This document shows positions 8,028 through 46,182 of a stretch of DNA of 64,000 nt, piece by piece; the stretch's first letter is position 1; every line of letters begins with the position of its first letter. The notes below the pieces were generated by a model. The model was not told where the DNA came from. It worked only from the letters and a program-made list of their open reading frames with translations, and made no database searches. The DNA lies in the IMG/VR virus record IMGVR_UViG_2913177423_000001, positions 19,415-83,414 of that record; one strand, given 5' to 3'. This stretch comes from a virus (taxonomy: Duplodnaviria; Heunggongvirae; Uroviricota; Caudoviricetes). The position numbers and the translations under genes were made by a program.

Positions 8028-9388
8028 GCCTGGTTAATTGGGAAGAGCACCGCGCCAAATTTATAGCGTTGCGTGAAGAAAAAGGGATCACCGTAAAGGA
8101 ATACTGCGAGCAACACGACCTTAGCTTCAATACCGCCAGAAAGCATCTCAATATGAAAAAAAATGAGGTGCGGTCGCAGGTGAAGACTACAAAAAAAAGC
8201 ACCAAATCACCTGAAAAAAAACGGGCAGGAAGAGCAAAAAAAAGGCCAGAAGAGGGTACAGAAACAACAAAATTTACAGAAACTGACAATTCACAGAGCG
8301 GAAGTTCTTTCCGGAGCATGCCGAGAAAGAAAACTTCGGATCATAAAAATAACGACAATAATAACAATGAGATAAAAGAATCTGTCAGGAGATCATTGCG
8401 CGAAAAAATGGCGAAAATGATCCCCGCCGAAGATAAATGCGCCTCAAAAACCGAGGGATCTTCAGCAATGATCCCTGGCGGTGCTGTGCAGCGTGCCACG
8501 TTGCCCACTACGAGTGTGGCTCGCGACATGATGAAGAACGGCGCAGAAGAGCACCTGCGGTTAGCAATTCAAATGGCGCAAGAACGCGCACTTCAGTACC
8601 AAAGCATTGTTGATCAGGAGGCCGAACGCCTACAGGCGGAGATAGACGCCCTGGGTGATGAACAGCCAGAAGGAATGCACCCTGGGCAGCGACTTCTCGG
8701 TCTAATCAGTGACGCGGCCTACTACATGAACGATTTTATCAGTAGGTTGGCAGCGATATATCAGTCCGAACAAAAGCTGCGACAGGGTGATGAAAAACTT
8801 CGTCAGGGTGCTCGCCAGCAAGCATTCAGAGAGGCCGAGGCCAGAGAAAAACTCGAATTAGCACGCCTACAGGCCGAACAGCGCGGCAAAGAGATTGAAT
8901 ATCGAATTGGCGCTGACGCACGCGCAGCCAGAGTTATCGCCGCCGCTATACGTATGCGTGAGCGCGAGGAACTGGACGATATCGGTGTTGCTGAATACAT
9001 CGAGCGTCAGGGTGTCAGTGTCCCGGCTATCCTCGCGGCGCGCGCGGCAAAAGCTATCGATCTTCTCGAACCGCCAGTTTCTGACATCAATGATGTTGAT
9101 GATGAACAGCTGGACAAAGAGGCAAGGGAGTATGCATTGCTTCAGGCAAACCATTCTCAATGGCTGGCAGAGCGCCGGGCAGATGTGGCTACCATTGTTG
9201 AAGACCTGGGGTGCGGAGATTACGACAGCAATGGCGAGCGTAAGGCTGGGGAATTCGAGGCCAACGACGAAGAGTTAGATATTGACCCTTCGGCAACGGC
9301 TGAAATTTACGGTGATTATGATGCATCAGACGTAGGGTATGACGCCGGAGATGATGATATCGCGATAGAACCTCCGGAGGACGATTAA
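8024..9388 (+). CDS. pacA: terminase small subunit (PacA-like, N-terminal HTH DNA-binding)
   Basis: 454-aa ORF coupled to large terminase (stop/start overlap at 9388); N-terminal HTH-like segment, acidic C-terminus. Confidence 0.65.
   Translation: MSLVNWEEHRAKFIALREEKGITVKEYCEQHDLSFNTARKHLNMKKNEVRSQVKTTKKSTKSPEKKRAGRAKKRPEEGTETTKFTETDNSQSGSSFRSMPRKKTSDHKNNDNNNNEIKESVRRSLREKMAKMIPAEDKCASKTEGSSAMIPGGAVQRATLPTTSVARDMMKNGAEEHLRLAIQMAQERALQYQSIVDQEAERLQAEIDALGDEQPEGMHPGQRLLGLISDAAYYMNDFISRLAAIYQSEQKLRQGDEKLRQGARQQAFREAEAREKLELARLQAEQRGKEIEYRIGADARAARVIAAAIRMREREELDDIGVAEYIERQGVSVPAILAARAAKAIDLLEPPVSDINDVDDEQLDKEAREYALLQANHSQWLAERRADVATIVEDLGCGDYDSNGERKAGEFEANDEELDIDPSATAEIYGDYDASDVGYDAGDDDIAIEPPEDD
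8339..8473. promoter_or_regulatory. candidate pac (packaging initiation) site: cluster of five GATC sites
   Basis: GATC at 8339, 8391, 8419, 8457, 8470 within 135 bp inside pacA-like gene; P1 pac is a Dam-site cluster within pacA. Confidence 0.35.
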
Positions 9389-10896
9389 TGGCTGGCGGGC
9401 GCAAGATTAAATGCGTCACCAGCGATCCACGCTGGCGCGATTGGGTAATCAAATACCGCTACAACTTTACCAAGGCTGTTATTGATATTTTTGGATTGTT
9501 TCCCTCACCTCAGCAGCAGGAGATTATCCAGTCCGTACAGCAAAAAGGGAGCAGAACCACTGTTACCTCTGGTCACGGTACAGGGAAATCGTCGTTAACG
9601 GCTATGTTGTTGCTGATTTATTTGATTCTGTTCCCCGATGCCCGTGTCATCATTGTTGCTAACAAGATAGGCCAGGTTAAAACAGGCGTATTCAAATACG
9701 TTAAACAGTATTGGGCGAATGCAGTTAAGCGTCACGGGTGGTTACAGACCTATTTTGTCCTGTCTGACACCATGTTTTATGAACGTTCCCGCAAAGGGAT
9801 CTGGGAAGTTCTCTGCAAAGGTTATCGACTCGGTAACGAAGAAGCACTGGCGGGGGAGCACGCGGCACATTTGCTTCTAATTCTGGATGAAGCATCAGGT
9901 ATATCTGATAAAGCGATCGGCGTAATGACTGGCGCTCTGACTGAAGAAGATAACCGAATGTTGATGCTATCCCAGCCAACAAGGCCAAGTGGTTATTTCT
10001 ACGATTCGCACCATTCTCAAGCTAAAACCCCAGACAACCCGAAAGGGATCTGGACAGCAATTGTTCTTAACTCAGAAGAATCACCGTTCGTCACACCACA
10101 ATTCATCAGGCAGAAACTCCTGGAATATGGCGGTCGCGATTCTATTGAGTACATGGTTAAGGTGCTTGGTCAGTTCCCTCGGGAGATTAACGGCTATTTG
10201 CTTGGTCGTGATGAATGCGATCGCGCAGCGCGGCGCAAGGTGTTGTTGGAGAAAAACTGGGGATGGGTGGCAACAGCTGACGTTGGTAACGGGCGAGACA
10301 AGTCAGTTCTTAATATCTGTAAAGTGTCTGGTCACCGGGAAAAGCGGCGTGTTGTTAACTTTAAGATAATGGAAATGCCAGGGACTATGGACCCGCTGGC
10401 TTTTGCTGACTTTATATACAACGAATGCACGCCGGATAAATACCCGAATATTACAATCGCGGTTGACGCTGATGGTTTTGGTTCAGATACCTGTGCGCAG
10501 TTGGTGCGCCGTGGTGCTAATCCGGTACGTATTCGGTGGGGGAAACCCATGTTTTCGAACAAAGACAAGGAGCGTTTTGTTAACCAGCGTGCCTACGCAA
10601 ATATTATGGCTCGTGATGCCATAAAGTCAGGCCGTATGCGTATAGACAGTGACCCTAAAACGGCAGAGCAAGCGTCAAAAATCCCTTTTTTACTGAATGA
10701 AGAAGGGAAGATGGCGATGATGCGCAAAGAGCACATGCGGCAAAAGCTAAACATCAAATCGCCTGACCGATGGGATACCTACTGCTTCACTATGCTGGTG
10801 GACTATGTGCCTGCAAATGAAGATATCGGTGCGGAAATGGCTACCTTCCGCGACCAGGTTCTTGCAGACATAGAAATGCCGGATCTGGATATATAA
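9388..10896 (+). CDS. pacB: terminase large subunit (PacB-like)
   Basis: Walker A GHGTGKSS, Walker B LLLILDEASG, C-terminal nuclease-like AVDADGFG. Confidence 0.85.
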   Translation: MAGGRKIKCVTSDPRWRDWVIKYRYNFTKAVIDIFGLFPSPQQQEIIQSVQQKGSRTTVTSGHGTGKSSLTAMLLLIYLILFPDARVIIVANKIGQVKTGVFKYVKQYWANAVKRHGWLQTYFVLSDTMFYERSRKGIWEVLCKGYRLGNEEALAGEHAAHLLLILDEASGISDKAIGVMTGALTEEDNRMLMLSQPTRPSGYFYDSHHSQAKTPDNPKGIWTAIVLNSEESPFVTPQFIRQKLLEYGGRDSIEYMVKVLGQFPREINGYLLGRDECDRAARRKVLLEKNWGWVATADVGNGRDKSVLNICKVSGHREKRRVVNFKIMEMPGTMDPLAFADFIYNECTPDKYPNITIAVDADGFGSDTCAQLVRRGANPVRIRWGKPMFSNKDKERFVNQRAYANIMARDAIKSGRMRIDSDPKTAEQASKIPFLLNEEGKMAMMRKEHMRQKLNIKSPDRWDTYCFTMLVDYVPANEDIGAEMATFRDQVLADIEMPDLDI

Positions 10897-10921: not shown

Positions 10922-11959
10922 TTACCAGAGTTTGGCGGCGCGCTGTGTTTGGGAGAAAGTGAACCCGTAACGTTCTTCTATGGTTTTACCGTATCTTTTA
11001 CGGGCATCTGTCAGTTTTATGCCCGTAAGGTCATCTCCGGACATCATCATTACGTCTATTAACTCCAGATCCATTTTATTCAGTCTCGCCATTGCTTCGC
11101 GCGCAGTTTGTATTTTACGCTCAATGATATGGCGAATAGCCGGATCGGCTTCTTCAAGCATTTTGGTCGATTTGTTCTTTAAGCTCTCACTGCGGATATC
11201 GATGTTCCGCAAGATGTATGACTTCGCAACATAGCTTGGTTGGTGCTTCTCCAGATCGCGAACGCGATAAAGACTAAAATCACCAATCAGGCCACAAGGT
11301 ATCGACTCGACCCCAGAATAAATAGTAATGCTGCGACGTTCGCCGACATTATTAACAACGGGTACTGTGGTATCCGGAAGTTTTGCGAAAACTAAGGCGC
11401 CATGTGCGCCGACCCTGAATCGTGACAGAGTATTGCTGTCTTCGATGTTTGTTGTCAGCACGACATCTGTATATCCCTCTTTGCGCGCCCGGTAAATTTC
11501 ACCTTCAGGTTCCGCCGCAAAAAAGCGGCGCTCTTCTTCAAGCGCCCCAACAATTTGTGAAAAAATCTTGTTTTTCAGGCTCTTCTTAATAATTGCGTCA
11601 TACTTTTTGAGCAAATTTTCGCGTGTAAATGAGCGAGTAGTAGTCGCGCTTTGCACAACAATATGCGTGCTTTGATTCGTGTCCTCTATGATGATTGGGA
11701 TCGGAGAATATACAGACTCAACAATGTTAGACGCTTTGCCGTCGGCATTACGGCACAAGTCAACAAAGGCTTTCCATTCTGCGAGGCACTTTTCAGCTTC
11801 TTCTAGTACATTCTGGTCATGCGTTAGTGCAACGTGGCGGAATTCCTCGCCAGCATAACTGGTATCATGGAAAACAGAGTTTGCGACCACCAGCTCTTTC
11901 CACCGTTCAGCGGTTTGCAGGAACCGTTTGTACTCTTTCTCGATCGACTTCTTACTCAT
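10922..11959 (-). CDS. putative master immunity repressor (C1 analogue by synteny; no sequence-level match claimed)
   Basis: 345-aa ORF divergent from recombinase and convergent with pacB as P1 c1; operator motif copies directly upstream. Confidence 0.45.
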   Translation of the reverse strand: MSKKSIEKEYKRFLQTAERWKELVVANSVFHDTSYAGEEFRHVALTHDQNVLEEAEKCLAEWKAFVDLCRNADGKASNIVESVYSPIPIIIEDTNQSTHIVVQSATTTRSFTRENLLKKYDAIIKKSLKNKIFSQIVGALEEERRFFAAEPEGEIYRARKEGYTDVVLTTNIEDSNTLSRFRVGAHGALVFAKLPDTTVPVVNNVGERRSITIYSGVESIPCGLIGDFSLYRVRDLEKHQPSYVAKSYILRNIDIRSESLKNKSTKMLEEADPAIRHIIERKIQTAREAMARLNKMDLELIDVMMMSGDDLTGIKLTDARKRYGKTIEERYGFTFSQTQRAAKLW

Positions 11960-11970
11960 TATTCCTACTC

Positions 11971-11992
11971 GATTTAGTTTTCTAACATAAAA
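11971..11992 (-). promoter_or_regulatory. operator-like motif (rc ATGTTAGAAAACTAAATC) at repressor-gene start
   Basis: motif copy 12 nt upstream of the minus-strand ATG at 11959. Confidence 0.55.
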
Positions 11993-12057
11993 TTACTATG
12001 ACAAATCTATGTCGAATAACAGGGTGAGTAAAGGATCAAGATGCGTTTTTTTATCAT

Positions 12058-12076
12058 CAAATTTAGAAAATTCTGC
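12058..12076 (+). promoter_or_regulatory. operator-like motif variant CAAATTTAGAAAATTCTGC
   Basis: variant motif copy in repressor/recombinase intergenic region. Confidence 0.4.
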
Positions 12077-12152
12077 TTAAAAACTGCCAGGCATAACTTA
12101 AAGCCCACGCCAGCAATGCATTGCCCATCTACGCGGGAAGGAAAAAAATTCC

Positions 12153-12184
12153 TAATTTTCTAACTTTAGATAATTGGCATTATT
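12153..12184. other. rox: rox/lox-like recombination site (14-bp inverted arms, 4-bp spacer)
   Basis: TAACTTTAGATAAT-TGGC-ATTATTTAAAGTTA; arms are inverted repeats with one mismatch; 160 bp upstream of recombinase gene. Confidence 0.7.
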
Positions 12185-12344
12185 TAAAGTTAGTATATAA
12201 TAATGATCAAACGATCAGTATTGACAGACTCAAAAAGTCATGGTTCGAATCAAGGGCTTAAATTTTAAATTCTCACGGATAACTAGCCTGTCATTTTTTG
12301 TTTTTTCGCGTAGCGACACCAATTTATAGAGGTGAAATGATTAC

Positions 12345-13373
12345 ATGAGTAAACTTATTATCTCCGGTAATCCTGGCATGTTTCTTCGTGATATTGGTGC
12401 TGAGTACCAGGAAGCCGCCAAAAATTTCATGCAGTTCCTTAATGACCAGGGCGCTTACTCACCTAATACACTGCGCGATCTGCGCCTGGTCTTTCACTCC
12501 TGGGCGCGTTGGTGCCACGCTCGTGGTCTTGCGTGGTTTCCGATCTCCCCGGAAGCTGCCCGCGAATACCTGCTTCAACTGCATGATGCGGATCTGGCTT
12601 CAACCACCATTGAAAAGCATTACGCCATGCTCAATATGCTGTTGTCACAATGCGGACTGCCGCAACTCTCTGATGACAAAAGCGTATCCCTGGCGATGCG
12701 GCGCATCCGGCGCGAAGCTGCAACCGAAAAAGGCGAACGCACAGGCCAGGCTATACCGTTGCGGTGGAATGATCTGAAATGGCTCGACGTGTTGCTGTCC
12801 CGTTCCGAGCGGCTGGTGGACCTGCGCAACCGGGCGTTTCTCTTCGTGGCATACAATACCCTGTTGCGTATGGCTGAAATGTCCCGCGTGCGTGTTCGCG
12901 ATCTGGAACAGACTGGTGACACTGTAACGCTTCACGTATCCCACACCAAAACCATCACGACCGCCGCCGGACTTGATAAGGTGCTCTCCCTCCGGACAAC
13001 TGCGGTTCTCAATGACTGGCTGGACGAGTCCGGACTACGTGATCACCCGGATGCGATACTTTTCCCGCCAGTACACCGGAGCAACAAAGCGCGGATCACC
13101 ACCACGCCACTAACCGCGCCCGCGATGGAGAAGATTTTCAGTGACGCCTGGGCGCTGCTGGGTAAGAGTGATGCCACCCCAAATAAAGGCCGTTACCGGA
13201 CGTGGACAGGCCACAGTGCGCGTGTTGGTGCCGCCATAGATATGGCTGAAAAACAGGTGTCTTTGGTTGAAATTATGCAGGAAGGTACATGGAAGAAGCC
13301 CGAAACACTGATGCGTTATCTTCGTCGTGGCGGTGTGACAGCAGGTGCCAATAGCCGCCTCATGGATTCATGA
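12345..13373 (+). CDS. dre: Cre-family tyrosine site-specific recombinase (Dre-like)
   Basis: 342 aa; blocks SWARWCHARGLAWFP, VSLAMRRIRRE, AYNTLLRMAEMSRVRVRDL, WTGHSARVGAAIDMA align with P1 Cre; cognate site upstream. Confidence 0.9.
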   Translation: MSKLIISGNPGMFLRDIGAEYQEAAKNFMQFLNDQGAYSPNTLRDLRLVFHSWARWCHARGLAWFPISPEAAREYLLQLHDADLASTTIEKHYAMLNMLLSQCGLPQLSDDKSVSLAMRRIRREAATEKGERTGQAIPLRWNDLKWLDVLLSRSERLVDLRNRAFLFVAYNTLLRMAEMSRVRVRDLEQTGDTVTLHVSHTKTITTAAGLDKVLSLRTTAVLNDWLDESGLRDHPDAILFPPVHRSNKARITTTPLTAPAMEKIFSDAWALLGKSDATPNKGRYRTWTGHSARVGAAIDMAEKQVSLVEIMQEGTWKKPETLMRYLRRGGVTAGANSRLMDS

Positions 13374-13374
13374 G

Positions 13375-13394
13375 ATTAAATTTCTAACACACCT
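13375..13394 (-). promoter_or_regulatory. operator-like motif (rc GGTGTGTTAGAAATTTAATC)
   Basis: motif copy 2 nt after recombinase stop. Confidence 0.5.
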
Positions 13395-13447
13395 TTTTAG
13401 ATTGTTATCTTTGCTGTAAAGTACCCTCTCCTATTTCGGAGGGTGCT

Positions 13448-13792
13448 TTGCAGAGTCAAATCACGGAATCAAGACGCTTTAAGGTTGATGGTTACACCGT
13501 AACCTTCGCCGCTGGTGTTAAGAACAGTCATGCTGTCGTTGTATTTGGCATCATGACCGGACTTGAGGCCGTCCCTGTGTTTACCCTCGAAAAAAACTGG
13601 CGAAATCTGGAGGAAGCGGAAAGCTACGTCCGGAGAGTAACCATCGCTGCCGCCGAAAAACTCCTGTCCCACTATCAGGAAAATTATCGCACTATGGTCG
13701 AGAAGATTAATCTCGCTTTCACTCGCCCCACTACAGGCTTTATCGCCCCGGAGACTAATGCAGGTCGCTATCCTGCAAGGGGGCGTCGGTGA
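13448..13792 (+). CDS. hypothetical protein (114 aa), first gene of accessory operon
   Basis: TTG start after GGAGGG RBS; 4-nt overlap with next ORF. Confidence 0.4.
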   Translation: MQSQITESRRFKVDGYTVTFAAGVKNSHAVVVFGIMTGLEAVPVFTLEKNWRNLEEAESYVRRVTIAAAEKLLSHYQENYRTMVEKINLAFTRPTTGFIAPETNAGRYPARGRR

Positions 13793-14265
13793 AAAATTAT
13801 TACCCATCTCTGAATTGTTACCCGTCTTCGTATCCGGAATTGTCCGGGAAGCTGTTAGCTCTATTGGCTAAATCACCAACTGAATGGTTTAGGCCAGTCG
13901 TTATCAATCCGCACTTCCTGGATTACGGATCTGTTCGCACTCGTAACGAACTCAAAAACCTGCTGGCGCATGGATTCATTCGACATCGCGCCGGGAAAGG
14001 CTATCAGTTAGCGATTGCGCCAGAAGAGGCCGTGCGGCTATTCGCATATCGTGACAGCCAGACAAAAGCGCGGGTAATAGCTCAAATACTTCATAACGGC
14101 AGCACCTATGCCCGCCAGTTTGGCGGCGACACGTCGCAGTTCTTGCGGGCTGTGCGATCGCTGGAAGAACAAGGAGTTATTGAAAGTTCCTGTCTTCCTG
14201 TTCCTACCGTTCCACATATCAAACGTCGGGTTTACACCTTCACGCAGAGAGCAAAAAAACAATGA
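13789..14265 (+). CDS. hypothetical protein, possible winged-helix DNA-binding
   Basis: ATG overlapping upstream stop; segment LAIAPEEAVRLFAYRDSQTKARVIAQIL is wHTH-like (weak). Confidence 0.5.
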   Translation: MKNYYPSLNCYPSSYPELSGKLLALLAKSPTEWFRPVVINPHFLDYGSVRTRNELKNLLAHGFIRHRAGKGYQLAIAPEEAVRLFAYRDSQTKARVIAQILHNGSTYARQFGGDTSQFLRAVRSLEEQGVIESSCLPVPTVPHIKRRVYTFTQRAKKQ

Positions 14266-14756
14266 TTTACGTAAAAGTGAAACGCCTACATCCGGCAGCG
14301 AAACTTCCAGCTTATGCCACTGCCGGATCGGCGGCGATGGATTTTGAGGCTGTTGAAATAACACCGTGCGTCGATAGCAATGGTGCAATTTCCTCAAGCT
14401 GGTGGGTGCATACCGGGCTGGCTATGGAGATCCCGCCCGGCTGGTGTCTGAAACTCTATCCGCGTTCCGGATTGGGCTGCAAAAAACATACTCGCCTGGC
14501 TAACTGTGTAGGAATTATCGACTCCGATTATCGCGGTGAAATCATGGCAAAACTGATTACTGATCCCGGCGGTGAAGGCGTTTGCCTCAAGCCAGGAATG
14601 GCGGTCATGCAAGGCATTTTTGAGCGTGTTGAACAAGTCTCTCTTGTCGAAGTTGAGGAACTCAACGAAACGGAACGTGGTGCTGGTGGCTTTGGTAGCA
14701 CATCAGAAGGCCGCTTTGAAATTAAGCGTTCACCGCTTCAGTACGAAAAGTTATAA
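14262..14756 (+). CDS. dut: dUTP diphosphatase (dUTPase)
   Basis: dUTPase motifs PRSGL, GIIDSDYRGE, RGAGGFGSTSE. Confidence 0.85.
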   Translation: MIYVKVKRLHPAAKLPAYATAGSAAMDFEAVEITPCVDSNGAISSSWWVHTGLAMEIPPGWCLKLYPRSGLGCKKHTRLANCVGIIDSDYRGEIMAKLITDPGGEGVCLKPGMAVMQGIFERVEQVSLVEVEELNETERGAGGFGSTSEGRFEIKRSPLQYEKL

Positions 14757-14770
14757 GCAGAGGGACAACT

Positions 14771-15457
14771 ATGAAGGAAAAGCTTTTGAAGACGCTCCCT
14801 GAGTACAAATACCACGGAACCATTCGCGCATCGAAAATCAAAAAGATCAAGCCTATTGGCGGATTAATTCCTCTCTGGGGTGATATTGAGGTCACCGAAC
14901 CAAAAGGGGTAACGATTCGTGTTGATTTAATGTTTTTACAAAAATACCGACCACAAATTGGCGGGTATTTGGTCGTTCATGAGGACGGATATTTGTCCTA
15001 TTTATCAGAAAAAACATTTAAAGAGGGCTTTAGTCGAATTGATGACATCTCAGAAAATGAAACAACAGTCATCATTGCCGATGACAAAGGCATGATGATT
15101 AATCTTGCCGGGATCGTATCTATTTATGCTGATGACATCACTAACCAACAAGAAGAAATCGACCTTGAGGCAGCCGACTTTTCTGACGCGCTGATGTGGC
15201 TGAAGGATGGCAAGAAAGTTGCTCGACGCGGGTGGAACGGCGAAAACCAATTCTGCTGGCTGGTTCCTGACAAACAGGGCGCTTCAAGACTAACCCCTAT
15301 AAAACATGCCGCAAGCGGAGAGCTTGAAATCAATTTCGGCTCGCCCCTTGCTCCTTATGGAGAGCATTTCACTTTGAAAAATGCACAAGGTGTCTTTCTT
15401 CCGTGGCTACCTTCTGTCGGCGACCTGCTGGCATGTGACTGGTTTGTAGTGGAGTGA
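14771..15457 (+). CDS. DUF2829 (Tad2-like) domain protein with 130-aa N-terminal extension
   Basis: C-terminal DFSDALMWLKDGKKVARRGWNG ... VFLPWLPSVGDLLACDWFVVE matches DUF2829 signature as recalled. Confidence 0.6.
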   Translation: MKEKLLKTLPEYKYHGTIRASKIKKIKPIGGLIPLWGDIEVTEPKGVTIRVDLMFLQKYRPQIGGYLVVHEDGYLSYLSEKTFKEGFSRIDDISENETTVIIADDKGMMINLAGIVSIYADDITNQQEEIDLEAADFSDALMWLKDGKKVARRGWNGENQFCWLVPDKQGASRLTPIKHAASGELEINFGSPLAPYGEHFTLKNAQGVFLPWLPSVGDLLACDWFVVE

Positions 15458-15463
15458 TTTGAC

Positions 15464-16237
15464 ATGGAAAGCACCAAAACAACTCAATACCGCTTGCGTA
15501 ATGGCCTGCTGGTGGCTGTTAACGCCGACATGTCACTGCCGTTTGACACGATAGAACGCACTATCATGACGTATCTCGGCTTTAATGAAGAGCTGAATGA
15601 AGAGCATGGCGTAGCTATATGGAGTGATGCAGACAGCGGCGTTCGTCGTTACATCACTGCCAGAGGCAAAGACTACTCTCTGGAAGAACTGTTTACCCTT
15701 GCGCAGTCTTTCGAATGTGTAGCATTGGACCTGTTTAATGATCCTGCTATAGCGCAACGACTTATCCGCGAGCTTGGGCTGTCGGTTACCCCAATTATCT
15801 TTAAAAATGGCAGCCTGACTGGCACATGGCGCGTAGAGCGCATCTCAAACTACCTTCCATATAACCGCCAGTTAAACGGGGTAATTTCCGGCGTCAATCA
15901 GCCTGTAGCGTGTGAAAACGCAAACCTGGTTGTCGCTGTTTTGGCAACTGCATGTCGCGTTATTGGTTTGACTAAACAGGCATTTATCCATTTTCCCAAT
16001 GGTGCAGAAGGTGGCGTAGAAATTATCGCGTGTGATTTCGAATTTACCTGGATGCTTCGTGAATATCTGGACCGAACAGTGTTCCGCGCCGAAGAACTGG
16101 ATCTGTATATCACGTCAACGATTCCTGATGATGTGCGAGCTGAAGCAATCGCTACAGCCAGAGCGAAATGCCGTGCGTCGATTGCAGAACAAGCCAAAGA
16201 AGAAGTTACAGTTAAGGAAGTGGCAGATGGTAACTAA
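15464..16237 (+). CDS. hypothetical protein (257 aa), translationally coupled to terminase paralog
   Basis: stop overlaps downstream start; no recognised domain. Confidence 0.55.
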   Translation: MESTKTTQYRLRNGLLVAVNADMSLPFDTIERTIMTYLGFNEELNEEHGVAIWSDADSGVRRYITARGKDYSLEELFTLAQSFECVALDLFNDPAIAQRLIRELGLSVTPIIFKNGSLTGTWRVERISNYLPYNRQLNGVISGVNQPVACENANLVVAVLATACRVIGLTKQAFIHFPNGAEGGVEIIACDFEFTWMLREYLDRTVFRAEELDLYITSTIPDDVRAEAIATARAKCRASIAEQAKEEVTVKEVADGN

Positions 16238-17321
16238 GAGCAATATTTATAAAGATCCGCGCTGGCTGTCGCTGGTGGAGAAATATAAAGACAATTGGGT
16301 ACTGGCAGCAAAAGAATTGTTTGATATTGATTTAAGCCACCAGCAACAACAAATTGTTGAAGCTATACAGCCCAATAATGCAAAAGCTACTGTCACCACT
16401 CCGCATGGGATCGGACGACCGCAAGTGCTTGCTGTTATTAGTACCCTTTATACGATTATGTATCCTGATTCCCGGACAGTAATTGTTTATCCAAAATCAA
16501 ATGCTTGCAAAAGAGGAATTGTTGCATATGTGTGGCAATGTTGGGAGGCATTGCTGAAAAAACAACCTTTTATCATTGAGTATTTTAAGGTCGGTGATAG
16601 CGGTCTGATGTTCAATGAATTTTGGGGAATGTGCTTTTGTAACTACCGCCTTAACTATGAAGATAGCATTGCAGGTCACTACGCCGACCATCTTTTATTC
16701 ATTATTGTGGATTCCGCACATATCAGCGATCGGGCATACAGTATTGTGTGGGCAAGCATGACTAGTGGTGATTCACGCATATTGCTCACTTCAATTCCGT
16801 CACCAGAGGAAATAGGCTTTTTTTATGATTCACATCATGGACGTGCTTTAGCTGAAGATAATCCGAGTGGTGTCTATAAAGCCATTAAGCTGAGTGCTGA
16901 GGATTCACCATTTATTACCCAAGAATATCTTGATCATTTTGCCGAAAGGTATGGCGGGCGAAATAGTGATGACTATCGTCGTATGATTCTTGGTGAGTTC
17001 CCTGGTATTAGGGAGGCTGTTCTTGAATCAGATATGCCGAAGACAATGCGCTTTTCGATGCCTGATGGTAGTGAATGGACAATGCCATTACGAGTGATAG
17101 CCCGGCATCATGCGCAGCACCACGCCAAAAAACATAGCGTCACGACATTAGAATGGTTGAAATCGCACACTATTCCACTCTTCACTGCAGATCACAATGC
17201 TATCGTTGAGTGGGCCAAAACAATTCCGTGGGAGCATGTCGCTGAATACGCTCACATGCTAAAACCGCCGAAAGACAGACACGAAATTAGCTGGCTGACA
17301 GCCGAAAAAATCATTGAATGA
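16227..17321 (+). CDS. degenerate terminase large-subunit ATPase-domain paralog
   Basis: homologous to PacB-like N-terminus (DPRW..QQQ..; YFYDSHH..DNP.G..SPF..YGGR) but Walker A is PHGIGRPQ, Walker B is FIIVDSAH (no Asp-Glu), no nuclease domain; start moved to ATG 16227. Confidence 0.6.
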   Translation: MVTKSNIYKDPRWLSLVEKYKDNWVLAAKELFDIDLSHQQQQIVEAIQPNNAKATVTTPHGIGRPQVLAVISTLYTIMYPDSRTVIVYPKSNACKRGIVAYVWQCWEALLKKQPFIIEYFKVGDSGLMFNEFWGMCFCNYRLNYEDSIAGHYADHLLFIIVDSAHISDRAYSIVWASMTSGDSRILLTSIPSPEEIGFFYDSHHGRALAEDNPSGVYKAIKLSAEDSPFITQEYLDHFAERYGGRNSDDYRRMILGEFPGIREAVLESDMPKTMRFSMPDGSEWTMPLRVIARHHAQHHAKKHSVTTLEWLKSHTIPLFTADHNAIVEWAKTIPWEHVAEYAHMLKPPKDRHEISWLTAEKIIE

Positions 17322-17330
17322 TATCAACAA

Positions 17331-17358
17331 AAAGCCCGCCTGGTCTGGCGGGCTTCTT
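17331..17358. terminator. bidirectional intrinsic terminator
   Basis: hairpin AAAGCCCGCC-TGGTCT-GGCGGGCTT plus T-run, between convergent genes. Confidence 0.7.
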
Positions 17359-17359
17359 T

Positions 17360-17749
17360 TCATAACACAGGGCAATCGTCAAATTCCCCACTCCGGGCAT
17401 CATTGATGATGTGGGTGATCACGCCAAACACAGCATTGCTGCCTGTATATCCATCGTCATCCTTCGGCAACGCTTCCTTCTTGCCGGATCTTAAATCCTC
17501 CAGGTGCTGATGCGGATGCTTCCGGTATCTCTTTACGCGATATTCCCCCTCTATAGCACATACAAGCAGCGAACCATCAACTGGAGTGAGTGAGGAATCG
17601 ACCACAAGCAACGCTCCTTGCAATATGCCTTCGCGGTAATGGCTGTCAGCCGCCCGCATGAAGTAGGTGGCTGATGGATGCCTGATTAGGTGCTGATCAA
17701 GAGATATGCGGCGTTCAGCGTAATCCGCCGCAGGAGAAGGGAAGCCCAT
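17360..17749 (-). CDS. humD: UmuD-prime homolog (HumD-like, S24 LexA/UmuD family)
   Basis: 129 aa; UmuD-like core GSLLVCAIEGEYRVKRY ... AVFGVITHII; LexA box directly upstream. Confidence 0.8.
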   Translation of the reverse strand: MGFPSPAADYAERRISLDQHLIRHPSATYFMRAADSHYREGILQGALLVVDSSLTPVDGSLLVCAIEGEYRVKRYRKHPHQHLEDLRSGKKEALPKDDDGYTGSNAVFGVITHIINDARSGEFDDCPVL

Positions 17750-17767
17750 AGCGTTTTCACCTCTAAA

Positions 17768-17787
17768 TACTGTTTATATATACAGTA
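17768..17787. promoter_or_regulatory. LexA (SOS) box TACTGTTTATATATACAGTA
   Basis: CTGT-N8-ACAG palindrome about 19 nt upstream of humD start. Confidence 0.7.
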
Positions 17788-17847
17788 TACATTAAAGAGG
17801 CTTGAAGTGTGCAATAGAGCGATGCTTTGCGCTCGCCTGGTGGCGCG

Positions 17848-18099
17848 TTATTTTTTGGCTATATCATCTTTCTGATATACCGGATCGTTCCCTTTTGGCA
17901 GCTGGAGGCTTAACTGCCGGTAGTGCCGTAGCCGTTCCATGAAATAGGTGCGCAGGTTCTCCGGCTGCTCACGGGCTACCTGTTCCGCTATGACGGGTAT
18001 GTTCAATCGCTCTTTGTAGGCTACGCCGCTGGCAGCAAGATCTACGTTTACCTTGTCTCGCTCTTCCTGATTTTTAGCCGCAATATTCCAGTCTGACAT
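17848..18099 (-). CDS. hot: DNA polymerase III theta-subunit homolog (Hot-like)
   Basis: [36 protein letters not shown] aligns with E. coli HolE. Confidence 0.8.
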
Positions 18100-18120
18100 A
18101 AAATAGCCCTAATTTATTGA

Positions 18121-18567
18121 TTAGTGTTCATCCCAGGGAGACATATCCGGAAGGGTATCAACAATACGGAATTTACCGGGATAACGGTATCTACAGCCCG
18201 CCTGAGTCCATACAGTAACGACAAATCCCCCGCCCTGTTCATCTTCAGGTAGCAGGCGATCTGCTTGCTCGGAAACCATGTGGACCACAAAAGGAGCATC
18301 ACTACCGTCTTCGAATAGCACCTCAAGGGCGTCCCGGCCTTCCAGGCTACCTCTGCTGATGATGACATATTCTGCACCGCGCATTTCTTTCAACAAATGC
18401 TTTGCGGAGTCAGGCACAAGCAACCTGGCTGCGCCAGCGTTCCACGAGAGATACACATATCCAGCTCGTGCATTTTCTGACTTCCAGTAGTCAGTTTCCT
18501 TTAACGCCTGACCTTCGTTCTTAATGAAAAACATAAAAACTCCCTTTTCAAATTTTCGAGTAAACAA
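18121..18567 (-). CDS. hypothetical protein (148 aa)
   Basis: ORF in minus-strand array; start uncertain. Confidence 0.5.
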   Translation of the reverse strand: MFTRKFEKGVFMFFIKNEGQALKETDYWKSENARAGYVYLSWNAGAARLLVPDSAKHLLKEMRGAEYVIISRGSLEGRDALEVLFEDGSDAPFVVHMVSEQADRLLPEDEQGGGFVVTVWTQAGCRYRYPGKFRIVDTLPDMSPWDEH

Positions 18568-26086: not shown

Positions 26087-26123
26087 TTTGTGTTAGAAAA
26101 TCAATTTTGAATATCTAACAAAT
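26087..26123. promoter_or_regulatory. inverted pair of operator-like motifs between divergent operons
   Basis: TTTGTGTTAGAAAATCAATTTT and inverted GAATATCTAACAAAT. Confidence 0.55.
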
Positions 26124-26168: not shown

Positions 26169-26747
26169 ATGCAGAGACAGAGTTATTGGGAGAAACAGAG
26201 ACAAAAAGCCATGCAAAAACTGGCTGATCCGGAATGGCGGGAAGAGCAAAGGGCAAAACGTCTTCAGCAGGCTCAACGCCAGCAGCAACGCGCAAGGGAA
26301 AAAGCCGCATCGCCTGAATATCGTCAAAAGAAACTTGAAAAAGTGAGGCAAAGTGAACAGCGCAGAAGAGAGAGGGCGGCGTCAGCCCTCCCCAAAAAAA
26401 CGCGCCCGTCACGCGGATTAAAAGGGAGATCACTCACAGCAGAAGAGCGCCGGATACAGGAGGCTATAGGCAAACTCCCCTGTATTGCCTGCCATCTTCA
26501 CGGGAAGCATAGCCCTGTCGTATCTCTCCACCACATATTTGGCAGAACGGCTAAAGATGCCCATAAATACGTTCTCCCTTTGTGTAAATGGCACCACCAG
26601 CACGCAGCGCCAGCAGAGATCCGCGAACAATATCCCTGGTTGGTTCCTGTTCATGCTGATGGAAAAATAGGCGGGAAAGCAGATTTTATACGGCACAATG
26701 CCGAAGAGATGACGCTCTATCAGACGGTGCAAGAAATGGTGAATTAA
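26169..26747 (+). CDS. ref: Ref-like HNH endonuclease (recombination enhancement function)
   Basis: basic/Gln-rich N-terminal half; C-terminal HNH-like CIACHLHGKHSPVVSLHHI ... LPLCKWHHQ; operator upstream as for P1 ref. Confidence 0.7.
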   Translation: MQRQSYWEKQRQKAMQKLADPEWREEQRAKRLQQAQRQQQRAREKAASPEYRQKKLEKVRQSEQRRRERAASALPKKTRPSRGLKGRSLTAEERRIQEAIGKLPCIACHLHGKHSPVVSLHHIFGRTAKDAHKYVLPLCKWHHQHAAPAEIREQYPWLVPVHADGKIGGKADFIRHNAEEMTLYQTVQEMVN

Positions 26748-26763
26748 TTTTCTAACATTTTAT
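26741..26763 (-). promoter_or_regulatory. operator-like motif (rc ATGTTAGAAAATTAATTC)
   Basis: motif copy overlapping ref stop. Confidence 0.5.
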
Positions 26764-38076: not shown

Positions 38077-38120
38077 CCAATTGTGTTAGATAATTGAATA
38101 GAATTTTCTAACACAATTGG
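38077..38120. promoter_or_regulatory. perfect palindromic double operator (CCAATTGTGTTAGA ... TCTAACACAATTGG)
   Basis: 14-bp perfect inverted termini enclosing two motif copies, ending 7 nt before rdgC-homolog ATG. Confidence 0.6.
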
Positions 38121-46160: not shown

Positions 46161-46182
46161 TTTATGTTAGAAAATTAAAATT
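46161..46182 (+). promoter_or_regulatory. operator-like motif TTTATGTTAGAAAATTAAAATT
   Basis: motif copy between divergent genes. Confidence 0.5.

What the first reader, a model, noticed from the sequence alone, without database searches (positions are those of the whole stretch)
13448..17321. Accessory six-gene operon after the recombinase: dUTPase, Tad2-like fusion, unknown protein and a dead terminase paralog
Six tightly coupled plus-strand genes (4-nt overlaps, one shared terminator at 17331) sit where P1 carries cra/ref/mat/res/mod. Content is not morphogenetic: a possible winged-helix protein, a canonical dUTPase, a DUF2829 (Tad2-like) domain fused to a 130-aa extension, a 257-aa unknown, and a terminase-ATPase paralog with destroyed Walker A/B. 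The combination suggests an anti-defense or packaging-interference cassette that may be undescribed as a unit.
Basis: partly seen in the sequence, partly recalled or inferred. Interest (0 to 1): 0.8.

Follow-up and report, generated by a model that had tools for sequence, protein, structure and literature searches.

The report
Mosaic early accessory operon after recombinase
Behind the Cre-like recombinase of this D6-type phage-plasmid lies a real six-gene operon, but it is a patchwork: an old family backbone (c8-like, winged-helix-like and IsaA genes) into which a dUTPase, a Tad2-type immune-signal sponge fusion and an inactive copy of the phage's DNA-packaging ATPase have been inserted.

Summary
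The six genes are real. They are tightly packed and end at one strong terminator (17332-17355).

The window is a D6-like phage-plasmid, and the same cassette occurs in phage D6 and in 235 plasmid records.

Gene identities:
- **g1** is the homolog of P1 c8, which also directly follows cre in P1.
- **g2** is probably a winged-helix protein.
- **g3** is a near-canonical trimeric dUTPase. Its motif IV arginine is lost.
- **g4** joins a Dec-like OB N-domain to a Tad2/DUF2829 sponge domain that keeps the ADPR-pocket motifs.
- **g5** is IsaA, which is non-essential in P1.
- **g6** is a paralog of the phage's own PacB terminase ATPase domain. Its Walker A and B residues are degenerate in all three paralog clades. 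The nuclease domain is replaced by a small domain that elsewhere stands next to DnaB. The gene is under purifying selection.

Distant P1-family phage-plasmids carry cre, a c8-like gene, a ~170-aa protein and isaA at the same site. This trio is therefore ancestral, and dut, the Tad2 fusion and the dead PacB are inserts.

IsaA and dead PacB recur as an overlapping pair after ssb in about 120 P1-like plasmids.

An operator-like motif and a hairpin that buries the g1 ribosome-binding site and start codon precede the operon.

Verdict: this is a mosaic early accessory operon with one credible counter-defence gene, not a single dedicated system. The IsaA/pseudo-terminase pair is the new part. Interest is moderate.

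The parts
13377..13390 (+). Operator-like motif TAAATTTCTAACAC, 4 nt after the recombinase stop codon and about 60 nt upstream of g1. Probably a binding site for the element's C1-family repressor.
   Evidence: The core AWWTTTCTAAC occurs 8 times in the window against 0.21 expected. Most copies are intergenic. The same site is conserved in D6 and in L006. Binding by C1 is inferred, not shown.
13414..13453 (+). Perfect 16-bp RNA hairpin. Its 3' arm contains the GGAGGG Shine-Dalgarno sequence and the TTG start codon of g1.
   Evidence: dG -26.4 kcal/mol, z -6.3, and 0 of 200 shuffles fold as well. It is conserved in D6 and L006, and a terminator-like hairpin sits at the same place in L008.
13448..13792 (+). 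g1, 114 aa. Homolog of P1 C8 (annotated 'establishment of lysogeny, putative'), equal to D6 orf117 and phrog_1968.
   Evidence: Homologs follow cre in L008, L009 and L011. A profile built from these finds P1 C8 at E 6e-11. P1 c8 also directly follows cre.
13789..14265 (+). g2, 158 aa. Equal to D6 orf116 and phrog_6669. Probably a (tandem) winged-helix protein.
   Evidence: hhalign gives 92% probability (E 7e-7) to the positional equivalent in L008. That protein hits MarR_2 at E 2.3e-5 (24.9 bits, cut-off 27) and several other winged-helix families weakly.
14262..14756 (+). g3, 164 aa. Trimeric-type dUTPase with a 16-aa C-terminal tail. Motif IV reads AVMQ instead of RIAQ.
   Evidence: Pfam PF00692 E 3.9e-14. 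NCBIfam NF001862 122 bits against a cut-off of 103. PDB dUTPases down to E 8e-25, with printed alignments.
14771..15175 (+). g4 N-terminal domain, about 135 aa. Always found fused to DUF2829 in phage-plasmids. Partial similarity to the OB-fold and stalk of the phage L decoration protein Dec.
   Evidence: phrog_11049 E 1.5e-19. All 11 complete (211-233 aa) homologs carry PF11195. A profile hits PDB 6e3c (Dec) at E 9.8e-5 over residues 60-125.
15176..15457 (+). g4 C-terminal Tad2-like (DUF2829) domain with GWNG and W-x-P-S-x-x-D motifs and a long beta2-beta5 insertion.
   Evidence: PF11195 74 bits against a cut-off of 25. PDB ModTad2 9eib E 3.8e-12, with SptTad2, SPO1 Tad2 and HgmTad2 also matched. 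Pocket residues are taken from 10.1101/2023.11.15.567273.
15464..16237 (+). g5, 257 aa. IsaA homolog, equal to D6 orf113 and phrog_2326. Two alpha/beta domains followed by a 35-residue C-terminal helix.
16227..16991 (+). g6 N-terminal part. A PacB (large terminase) ATPase-domain paralog with degenerate Walker A (PHGIGRP against GHGTGKS) and Walker B (IIVDSA against LILDEA).
   Evidence: BLASTP to the window's own PacB gives E 7e-61, 37% identity over residues 7-259. tblastn matches P1-family PacB genes. Alignment of the three paralog clades is. dN/dS is 0.14-0.26.
16986..17321 (+). g6 C-terminal domain, about 110 aa, replacing the terminase nuclease domain. It belongs to a small-domain family found standalone next to DnaB and fused to other replication or recombination-module proteins.
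17332..17355 (+). Intrinsic terminator shared by the operon and placed between it and the convergent humD-like gene (17360-17749, minus strand).
12345..13373 (+). Cre/Dre-type tyrosine recombinase immediately upstream (context).
   Evidence: Pfam Phage_integrase. D6 annotates it as 'similar to P1 gene cre'.
9388..10896 (+). PacB, the functional large terminase with intact Walker A and B motifs. It is the parent family of g6 (context).
10922..11959 (-). C1-family repressor, 345 aa (context). Candidate binder of the operator-like motif.
   Evidence: The equivalent gene in L006 carries PF27008 Phage_P7_repressor_C1.

Best explanation
This is one transcription unit downstream of the Cre/Dre-type recombinase of a D6-like phage-plasmid. 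It is an evolutionary mosaic rather than one system.

**Backbone (shown).** A c8-like gene (g1), a probable winged-helix protein (g2) and IsaA (g5) occupy this position after cre in distant P1-family phage-plasmids.

**Inserts in the D6 lineage (shown).**
- g3 is a trimeric dUTPase.
- g4 is a Tad2-family sponge domain fused to a Dec-like OB domain.
- g6 is a catalytically dead copy of the PacB terminase ATPase domain. It is fused to a small domain otherwise found beside replicative helicases, and its start overlaps the end of isaA.

**Regulation (inferred).** The operon is silent in the lysogen and is switched on early after infection or induction. A C1-type operator lies just upstream, and a hairpin buries the g1 ribosome-binding site and start codon.

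**Function (inferred).**
- The Tad2 domain sequesters ADPR-derived or cyclic-nucleotide alarm signals of Thoeris, CBASS or Pycsar-type defences.
- The dUTPase keeps dUTP low during phage DNA synthesis.
- IsaA and the pseudo-terminase act together as non-catalytic binding proteins on the packaging or replication machinery, as a regulator, a dominant-negative or a decoy.
For: **One unit**
- Junctions are overlaps of 4 to 11 nt or gaps of 6 to 14 nt. There is one strong terminator and no internal promoter-like site.

**Mosaic origin**
- IsaA relatives at 25-28% identity lie in ~90-100 kb phage-plasmid contigs as pacB, c1 (reverse), cre, g1-like, a ~170-aa gene, then isaA. A 40% relative on a 2.9-kb contig shows the same cre, g1-like, g2-like, isaA order. 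None has dut, Tad2 or the paralog.
- g1 falls in the P1 c8 family, and c8 also follows cre in P1.
- D6 lacks g6 and has a truncated g4.
- P1-like elements carry g4-isaA or isaA-g6 after ssb.
- Plasmid counts: IsaA in 475 records, the Tad2 fusion in 278, the g6 C-terminal domain in 166.

**Tad2**
- Pfam score is 74 bits against a cut-off of 25. The nearest solved structure is ModTad2, E 3.8e-12.
- GWNG and WLPSVGD align with the ModTad2 and SptTad2 pocket motifs. They match 4 of the 5 HgmTad2 residues whose mutation abolishes gcADPR binding.
- Alleles differ in the insertion that forms the second pocket and in GWNG. No plasmid record is more than 77% identical in g4, although the flanks are above 90%. 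This is typical of counter-defence genes.

**Dead PacB**
- E 7e-61 to the window's own PacB.
- The Walker A lysine column reads R, Q or E. The Walker B DE columns read VD, TE or IN across three clades.
- dN/dS is 0.06-0.26, and the ORF is intact at 364-366 aa in three clades.

**Pairing with IsaA**
- The two genes overlap by 11, 14 and 8 nt in three lineages at two different loci.

**Regulation**
- The motif is enriched 8 against 0.21 expected and is mostly intergenic.
- In P1 the equivalent genes sit behind the C1 operators Oref and Ossb.
- Hairpin z-score is -6.3.
Against: - There are no expression data. C1 binding to the motif is inferred, and only a weak promoter (TTAAAT-N16-TAGATT, by eye) overlaps it.
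- The hairpin could be a processing or attenuation site rather than a translational block.
- No ligand can be assigned to the Tad2 domain. One pocket residue differs (T92 to G), and the N-terminal fusion might prevent the tetramer that forms the pockets.
- Loss of the dUTPase motif IV arginine may lower its activity.
- IsaA and the g6 C-terminal domain have no informative structural relatives.
- P1 isaA is dispensable for plaque formation.
- Nothing shows that IsaA and g6 interact or touch the packaging machinery.
- PADLOC finds no defence-system relatives.
- dS is saturated for the deepest comparisons.
Confidence: 0.55

Rival explanations
1. First reader's reading. All six genes form one dedicated anti-defence or packaging-interference cassette that works and is inherited as a unit.
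For: The genes are tightly coupled and share one terminator. The complete six-gene block recurs in at least 39 plasmids and in L006 and L007.
Against: The gene sets separate freely. D6 lacks g6. Distant lineages have only g1, g2-like and isaA. P1-like elements carry g4-isaA or isaA-g6 at another locus, without dut, g1 or g2. g1 is the P1 c8 homolog.
Confidence: 0.08
2. The operon is mainly a lysogeny or regulatory operon. c8-like g1 and winged-helix g2, perhaps with IsaA, govern establishment of lysogeny or plasmid-state control. The dUTPase, Tad2 fusion and dead PacB are passenger 'moron' genes that exploit its promoter.
For: P1 c8 is annotated 'establishment of lysogeny, putative' and holds the same position. 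g2 relatives resemble MarR-type winged-helix proteins. The trio is the conserved part. The hairpin over the g1 start suggests tight dosage control.
Against: The c8 function in P1 is itself only putative. IsaA has no DNA-binding or regulatory fold match. This reading does not explain why isaA travels with g4 or g6 to the ssb locus without g1 and g2.
Confidence: 0.22
3. The dead PacB (g6), alone or with IsaA, is a dominant-negative that poisons the pacase of competing P1- or D6-type phages. That would make it a superinfection or competition weapon, or a brake on the element's own premature pac cleavage.
For: g6 keeps the whole ATPase-domain fold and PacB-specific surface motifs such as G-x-FYDSHH and NP-G...AI-L..E-SP, while it has lost catalysis and the nuclease domain. 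It is under purifying selection. It is about equally distant, 33-38%, from D6-type and P1-type PacB.
Against: There is no evidence of binding to PacA, PacB or the portal. The location behind an operator-like site suggests lytic rather than lysogenic expression, which fits exclusion poorly. The C-terminal domain associates with replication and recombination modules, not packaging.
Confidence: 0.12
4. g6 is a decoy or shield against host sensors that recognise large terminases (Avs1-3 type STAND proteins). It would bind them without activating them.
For: Avs proteins sense terminase large subunits (background in PMC11564622 and 10.1101/2025.06.06.658234). g6 mimics only the ATPase domain and sits next to another counter-defence gene, g4.
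Against: This is entirely speculative. No terminase-mimic anti-Avs protein appeared in the papers consulted. A mimic could equally trigger the sensor.
Confidence: 0.06
5. g6 is a decaying duplicate of pacB, a pseudogene relic with no function.
For: The catalytic motifs are destroyed and differ between clades.
Against: The ORF is intact at 364-366 aa in three clades that have diverged to 48-66% identity. dN/dS is 0.06-0.26. The gene is present in 166 plasmids. It has gained a conserved foreign C-terminal domain.
Confidence: 0.03

Closest known systems
Phage D6 orf117-orf113 block (NC_050154, genes gp010-gp014)
   Same: Same position after the cre-like gene and same order: orf117, orf116, dUTPase, DUF2829 protein, IsaA-like. 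Identity is about 94% at the DNA level over 61% of the query.
   Different: D6 has no PacB paralog. Its DUF2829 protein is only 146 aa, without the full N-terminal domain. pdcA, doc and phd follow in D6, whereas here the terminator abuts humD.
P1 c8 and the P1 isaA-IS1-isaB variable region
   Same: g1 belongs to the c8 family and, like c8, directly follows cre. g5 is 47% identical to P1 IsaA. In P1 both loci lie behind C1-controlled operators.
   Different: P1 has ref, mat, res and mod after c8, and keeps isaA after ssb. P1 IsaB is unrelated to g6. P1 has no dut and no Tad2 gene at these sites.
Tad2 / DUF2829 immune-signal sponges (SPO1 Tad2, HgmTad2, ModTad2, SptTad2)
   Same: The domain scores well above the Pfam cut-off. 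GWNG and W-x-P-S-x-x-D pocket motifs are present, along with a long beta2-beta5 insertion like the dual-pocket members.
   Different: The characterised members named here are ~89-104 aa standalone tetramers. This protein is 228 aa with an N-terminal Dec-like OB domain. One pocket residue differs (T to G). The ligand is unknown and nothing has been tested experimentally.
PacB / large terminase subunits (Terminase_6N-type ATPases)
   Same: Homologous ATPase-domain fold over about 255 residues, with 37% identity to the element's own PacB.
   Different: It lacks the Walker A lysine, the Walker B acidic pair and the nuclease domain, and has a different C-terminal domain. It works, if at all, as a pseudo-enzyme.
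Trimeric dUTPases (E. coli Dut and phage Duts)
   Same: Motifs I, II, III and V are present, and the protein passes the NCBIfam equivalog cut-off.
   Different: Motif IV reads AVMQ instead of R-I/V-A-Q. There is an extra 16-residue C-terminal tail.

Membership tests
Trimeric dUTPase (PF00692 / NF001862) | Profile score above the curated cut-off | tested here: met
   Pfam 53 bits against 22. NCBIfam NF001862 122.1 bits against 103.
Trimeric dUTPase (PF00692 / NF001862) | Five conserved motifs, including the motif III catalytic Asp and the motif V glycine-rich P-loop-like arm | tested here: inconclusive
   In the printed alignments, PRSG, GIIDSDYRGE and RGAGGFGST are present. Motif IV reads AVMQ where the reference enzymes have RIAQ. 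The role of that arginine in phosphate binding comes from general knowledge and was not tested.
Tad2 / DUF2829 sponge | DUF2829 domain above the Pfam gathering score | tested here: met
   74.4 bits against 25, residues 136-227.
Tad2 / DUF2829 sponge | ADPR-pocket residues (HgmTad2 W21/N22 and S90/T92/D93) | tested here: met
   g4 W155/N156 and S215/G217/D218. Four of five are identical and T92 is Gly. Mapping is by the explicit alignments to ModTad2 and SptTad2 and the residue list. The HgmTad2 mapping is by motif and range only.
Tad2 / DUF2829 sponge | Homotetramer that binds and sequesters a defence signalling molecule | not testable with these tools
   Needs biochemistry. The N-terminal fusion could alter oligomerisation.
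Tad2 / DUF2829 sponge | Small standalone protein (about 90-170 aa) | tested here: not met
   228 aa, two domains. The 11 complete (211-233 aa) homologs share the fusion.
Large terminase subunit (TerL / PacB) | Homology to the TerL ATPase domain | tested here: met
   E 7e-61 to the window's PacB. phrog_2 E 2.6e-9.
Large terminase subunit (TerL / PacB) | Walker A GxxxxGK[ST] lysine | tested here: not met
   PHGIGRP against GHGTGKS. The lysine column is R, Q or E in the three paralog clades.
Large terminase subunit (TerL / PacB) | Walker B hhhhDE acidic pair | tested here: not met
   V-D, T-E or I-N in place of D-E.
Large terminase subunit (TerL / PacB) | C-terminal RNase H-like nuclease domain | tested here: not met
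   The alignment to PacB ends at residue 259. The remaining ~110 aa belong to a different small-domain family.
P1 IsaA family (phrog_2326) | Full-length sequence homology to P1 IsaA | tested here: met
   47% identity over 98% of the protein, E 3e-68. phrog_2326 E 6e-130.
P1 C8 family | Sequence homology and position directly after cre | tested here: met
   A profile of g1 relatives finds P1 C8 at E 6e-11. Both genes are the first gene after cre. Direct pairwise similarity of g1 to C8 was not significant, so the link is transitive.
Winged-helix (MarR-like) DNA-binding proteins | Match to a winged-helix profile above cut-off | tested here: inconclusive
   g2 itself has no Pfam hit. Its homolog in L008 (hhalign 92%) scores 24.9 bits on MarR_2 against a cut-off of 27.
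Phage L Dec-type OB-fold decoration protein | Homology over the OB fold and trimeric stalk | tested here: inconclusive
   A profile of the g4 N-domain against PDB 6e3c gives E 9.8e-5, covering only residues 60-125. No structure was predicted.
Known anti-phage defence systems (PADLOC) | Any component profile match | tested here: not met
   No family at E <= 0.01 for any of the six proteins.

The most novel reading that the evidence does not exclude
IsaA and the catalytically dead PacB-like protein form a conserved two-protein module of P1/D6-type phage-plasmids. The module uses a terminase look-alike, joined to a helicase-associated small domain, to control or sabotage DNA packaging or replication. 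It might act as a built-in brake on the element's own pacase, a dominant-negative weapon against rival phages, or a decoy for terminase-sensing immune receptors. It would be the first described pseudo-terminase with a dedicated function.
Probability: 0.2. Interest if true: 0.75.

Novelty: new variant of a known kind. Interest (0 to 1): 0.45.

Why it matters
P1 and D6-type phage-plasmids are widespread in Escherichia and Salmonella and often carry resistance genes. Three points bear on that.

- **Tad2-type sponges.** Many of these elements carry a rapidly varying Tad2-type sponge fusion in an early operon. This would help explain how they spread among hosts armed with Thoeris, CBASS or Pycsar.
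- **IsaA.** The work gives the long-unexplained P1 gene isaA an evolutionary context. It is an ancestral partner of cre and c8, not an 'insertion-associated' oddity.
- **The pseudo-terminase.** A terminase ATPase domain that has lost catalysis, kept its fold under selection and gained a domain otherwise found beside DnaB is a concrete, testable candidate. It could regulate or antagonise DNA packaging, a type of protein not described so far in the material consulted.

None of this is shown experimentally. The value lies in well-defined hypotheses and constructs.

Tried and rejected
- **g6 as intact P1 isaB:** rejected. P1 IsaB has no significant similarity to g6 or to the P1-like paralog.
- **IsaA function by sequence profile against PDB:** nothing found, best E 0.9.
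- **IsaA function by Foldseek against viral models:** only P1's own protein.
- **g6 directly against PDB sequences:** noise only.
- **PADLOC on all six proteins:** no hits.
- **Pfam at E <= 10 for g1, g2, g5 and g6:** nothing meaningful.
- **Rfam on 11000-18500:** only chance-level hits.
- **Word-indexed protein search with the g6 C-terminal domain:** returned only fragments.
- **AlphaFold-database fold library:** unavailable.
- **The D6 genome paper (PMC5800970):** could not be read.
- **Literature search for inactive-terminase or anti-Avs decoys:** no precedent found.
- **Pseudogene reading of g6:** considered and rejected on dN/dS and conservation.

Full report
**What the window is**

The region lies in a D6-like phage-plasmid. 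Upstream are PacA (8024-9388) and PacB (9388-10896). Next come a 345-aa C1-family repressor on the minus strand (10922-11959) and a Cre/Dre-type tyrosine recombinase (12345-13373). Megablast of 13400-17400 finds phage D6 at about 94% identity over 61% of the query. It also finds 235 plasmid records, mostly ~90 kb non-mobilizable Escherichia and Salmonella plasmids, of which 39 cover at least 80%.

**Checking the observation**

The six plus-strand ORFs exist as described:
- g1 13448-13792
- g2 13789-14265
- g3 14262-14756
- g4 14771-15457
- g5 15464-16237
- g6 16227-17321

The ATG at 16227 gives a 364-aa product, which agrees with the 364-366 aa proteins called in public genomes.

The junctions are two 4-nt overlaps, gaps of 14 and 6 nt, and an 11-nt overlap. 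A strong terminator follows at 17332-17355, with a 9-bp stem of which 7 pairs are GC, dG -19 kcal/mol and z -5.4. It faces a convergent humD-like gene. No sigma-70-like site and no convincing terminator lies inside the block. All six products match PHROG families, five with E <= 1e-46 and g4 with 2e-43.

**Gene identities**

g3 is a trimeric dUTPase. Pfam gives E 3.9e-14 and the NCBIfam equivalog scores 122 bits against a cut-off of 103. PDB dUTPases match down to E 8e-25. Motifs I, II, III and V are intact in the printed alignments. Motif IV reads AVMQ where the reference enzymes have RIAQ, so 'canonical' is slightly too strong.

g4 has a Tad2-like DUF2829 domain at residues 136-227, scoring 74 bits against a cut-off of 25. 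Its nearest solved relatives are ModTad2 (9eib, E 3.8e-12), SptTad2, SPO1 Tad2 and HgmTad2. The explicit alignments show GWNG and W-L-P-S-V-G-D opposite the same motifs in ModTad2 and SptTad2. In HgmTad2, the mutations W21A/N22A and S90A/T92A/D93A markedly reduce gcADPR binding (10.1101/2023.11.15.567273). Four of those five positions are identical in g4. The family is now known to be a versatile sponge for 3'cADPR, His-ADPR, N7-cADPR, cyclic dinucleotides and cUMP/cCMP (10.1101/2025.08.24.671296 and 10.1101/2024.01.03.573942). No ligand can be assigned from sequence.

The ~135-aa N-terminal domain of g4 occurs fused to DUF2829 in all 11 complete homologs (211-233 aa), on ~90 kb contigs. Its profile hits the phage L decoration protein Dec (6e3c) at E 9.8e-5 over residues 60-125. 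That is a probable but partial homology.

Alleles of this fusion differ in three length classes of the beta2-beta5 insertion. In characterised Tad2 proteins this insertion builds the second pocket. Alleles also differ at GWNG, which becomes EWKG or GWKG. No PLSDB plasmid is more than 77% identical to the window's g4, although the flanking genes are above 90%. This pattern suggests rapid allelic turnover.

g6 is a paralog of the element's own large terminase. BLASTP to PacB gives E 7e-61 and 37% identity over residues 7-259. tblastn recovers PacB of D6, P1, P7 and SJ46 at 33-38%. Three paralog clades could be aligned: the window, a 66% variant in L006, and a 52% variant in P1-like elements. In that alignment the Walker A lysine column reads R, Q or E. 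The Walker B Asp-Glu columns read V-D, T-E or I-N. PacB has GHGTGKS and LILDEA.

Homology to PacB stops where the nuclease domain should begin. The last ~110 residues belong to a separate small-domain family. That family occurs in four other settings:
- a 98-aa standalone gene directly after DnaB in Salmonella plasmid CP053320
- a 98-aa standalone gene (gene_35) two genes downstream of DnaB (gene_33) in Cronobacter phage JK004
- the C-terminus of the 511-aa ORF36 of Xanthomonas phage CP2, beside Erf, exonuclease and SSB genes
- the N-terminus of Bordetella phage PHB04 gp107, beside RecE

Its model has pLDDT 83 and no clear fold match.

The paralog is not decaying. It is an intact ORF of 364-366 aa in all three clades. 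dN/dS is 0.14-0.26 for the ATPase-like part and 0.06-0.07 for the C-terminal domain, although dS is saturated in the deepest pairs. The C-terminal domain is found in 166 plasmid records, 44 D6-like and about 120 P1-like. P1 IsaB is unrelated to g6.

g1 is D6 orf117. Homologs follow cre in three distant phage-plasmid lineages, with E 2e-34, 6e-23 and 1e-10. A profile of these finds P1 C8 at E 6e-11. P1 c8 is annotated 'establishment of lysogeny, putative' and is likewise the first gene after cre.

g2 has a clear homolog in L009. Its profile aligns with the positional equivalent in L008 at 92% probability. That protein hits MarR_2 at E 2.3e-5, just below the cut-off, and several other winged-helix families weakly. 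The winged-helix idea is therefore plausible but not proven.

**The comparative picture**

IsaA relatives of only 25-28% identity lie in ~90-100 kb contigs. The order there is pacB, c1 (reverse), cre, a c8-like gene, a ~170-aa gene, then isaA. A 40% relative on a 2.9-kb contig shows the same cre, c8-like, g2-like, isaA order. None of these has dut, Tad2 or a PacB paralog. The backbone cre, c8, g2-like, isaA is therefore ancestral to the P1 family.

The D6 lineage inserted dut and the Tad2 fusion between g2 and isaA, and some members added the PacB paralog after isaA. Phage D6 itself lacks the paralog and has a 146-aa DUF2829 protein.

In P1-like elements isaA has moved behind ssb. There it is preceded by the Tad2 fusion in SJ46 and Ro157c2YLVW. 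RCS47 matches the same g4-isaA stretch in the searches, although its region was not inspected. In MH422554 and in IncY plasmid pEC13-3, the paralog instead follows isaA with an 8-nt overlap.

In plasmid records, IsaA is found in 475, the Tad2 fusion in 278 and the paralog domain in 166. The six genes are thus not one inherited unit. The recurring sub-modules are g4-isaA and isaA-g6. IsaA and the paralog have diverged in parallel (47% and 52%). Their overlapping junction is kept in three lineages at two loci, which argues that they work together.

**Regulation**

The motif AWWTTTCTAAC, with extended consensus TAAWTTTCTAACAC, occurs 8 times in the window against 0.21 expected. Most copies are intergenic, including two between c1 and cre and one at 13377-13390, directly after the cre stop. 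That site is conserved in D6 and L006. In P1, monovalent C1 operators are similarly scattered, and they control ref and mat after cre and ssb before isaA. I infer that this motif is the C1-type operator of the D6 immunity group and that the operon is repressed in the lysogen.

Between the motif and g1, a perfect 16-bp hairpin spans 13414-13453, with dG -26.4 kcal/mol and z -6.3. It encloses the GGAGGG Shine-Dalgarno sequence and the TTG start of g1. It is conserved in D6 and L006, and a terminator-like hairpin with a U run occupies the same place in L008. This suggests additional translational or attenuation control. No expression data exist.

**Most likely function**

Shown:
- gene identities
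- the mosaic history
- loss of catalytic residues in g6 under purifying selection
- conservation of the Tad2 pocket motifs

Inferred:
- The operon is an early, repressor-controlled accessory operon.
- The Tad2 fusion sequesters host immune signals.
- The dUTPase limits dUTP during replication.
- IsaA and the pseudo-terminase act as a non-catalytic pair on the packaging or replication machinery.

The mode of action of the pair cannot be decided. It could be a regulator, a dominant-negative or a decoy. No precedent was found in the papers consulted.

**Novelty and verdict**

The genes are already deposited and partly named in D6 and P1. The dUTPase and the Tad2 domain are members of known families. 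Three things appear undescribed:
- the reading of the locus as an ancestral c8, g2, isaA backbone with inserts
- the Dec-like/Tad2 fusion with allelic variation in its pockets
- the conserved IsaA/pseudo-terminase pair with a helicase-associated C-terminal domain

Interest is moderate at 0.45. The finding offers well-defined hypotheses, not a demonstrated new system.

Noticed in passing
window 13414-13453: A perfect 16-bp hairpin (dG -26.4 kcal/mol, z -6.3) buries the Shine-Dalgarno sequence and the TTG start of the c8-like gene. It is conserved in D6 and L006. A terminator-like hairpin with a U6 run sits at the same spot in distant phage-plasmid L008, and nothing comparable is present in P1 or L011.
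   Followed up: partly
window 861-874, 1904-1917, 3154-3167, 3310-3323, 11971-11981, 12154-12164, 13377-13390, 26090-26103, 26745-26758, 38101-38114, 46164-46177: The repeated motif TAAWTTTCTAACAC has 8 exact core copies against 0.21 expected and is mostly intergenic. It is probably the operator set of this element's C1-family repressor and differs from the P1 operator consensus recalled from memory.
   Followed up: partly
P0040-P0050 (homologs of window 14771-15457): Phage-plasmid Tad2 fusions come in three allelic classes that differ in the length of the beta2-beta5 insertion. In the short class GWNG is changed to EWKG or GWKG and the pocket Gly to Ala or Asp. This suggests switching of ligand specificity.
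   Followed up: partly
L016:1304-1600; L017:3001-3297; L018:2471-2806; L019:2501-2830; L020:2498-2827: The C-terminal domain of g6 defines an unannotated small-domain family (consensus M.DGS.W.VP..VIA..RA.YYA...PLF..D..EIEDWA.NNMNW.DV). It occurs in Salmonella, Cronobacter, Xanthomonas, Bordetella and Rhizobium phages, usually within replication or recombination modules and directly after DnaB in one case.
   Followed up: partly
window 14262-14756 (residues about 112-118): The dUTPase motif IV reads GMAVMQ instead of GERIAQ, so the conserved arginine is missing. D6 orf115 is near-identical overall (phmmer E 5e-111), but its motif IV was not inspected.
   Followed up: no
window 17360-17749 compared with L001 3850-5184: In D6 and many plasmids, pdcA, doc, phd and one further ORF lie between the cassette and humD. 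In this window the terminator abuts humD directly, so this variant lacks the phd-doc addiction module at this site.
   Followed up: no
window 16032-16226: The mechanical ORF for g6 extends upstream to a GTG at 16032, inside isaA in another frame. One public record (P0001, 438 aa) also has a longer N-terminus than the usual 364-366 aa. The ATG at 16227 is the start used by most annotations.
   Followed up: partly
L008 6820-7479 and L011 5838-6884: Distant phage-plasmids carry other cargo just after isaA. L008 has a Ref-like RecA-dependent nuclease a few genes downstream. L011 has a DUF4406 protein followed by a ParD/ParE pair. The site downstream of isaA therefore looks like a general cargo-insertion hotspot.
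   Followed up: no
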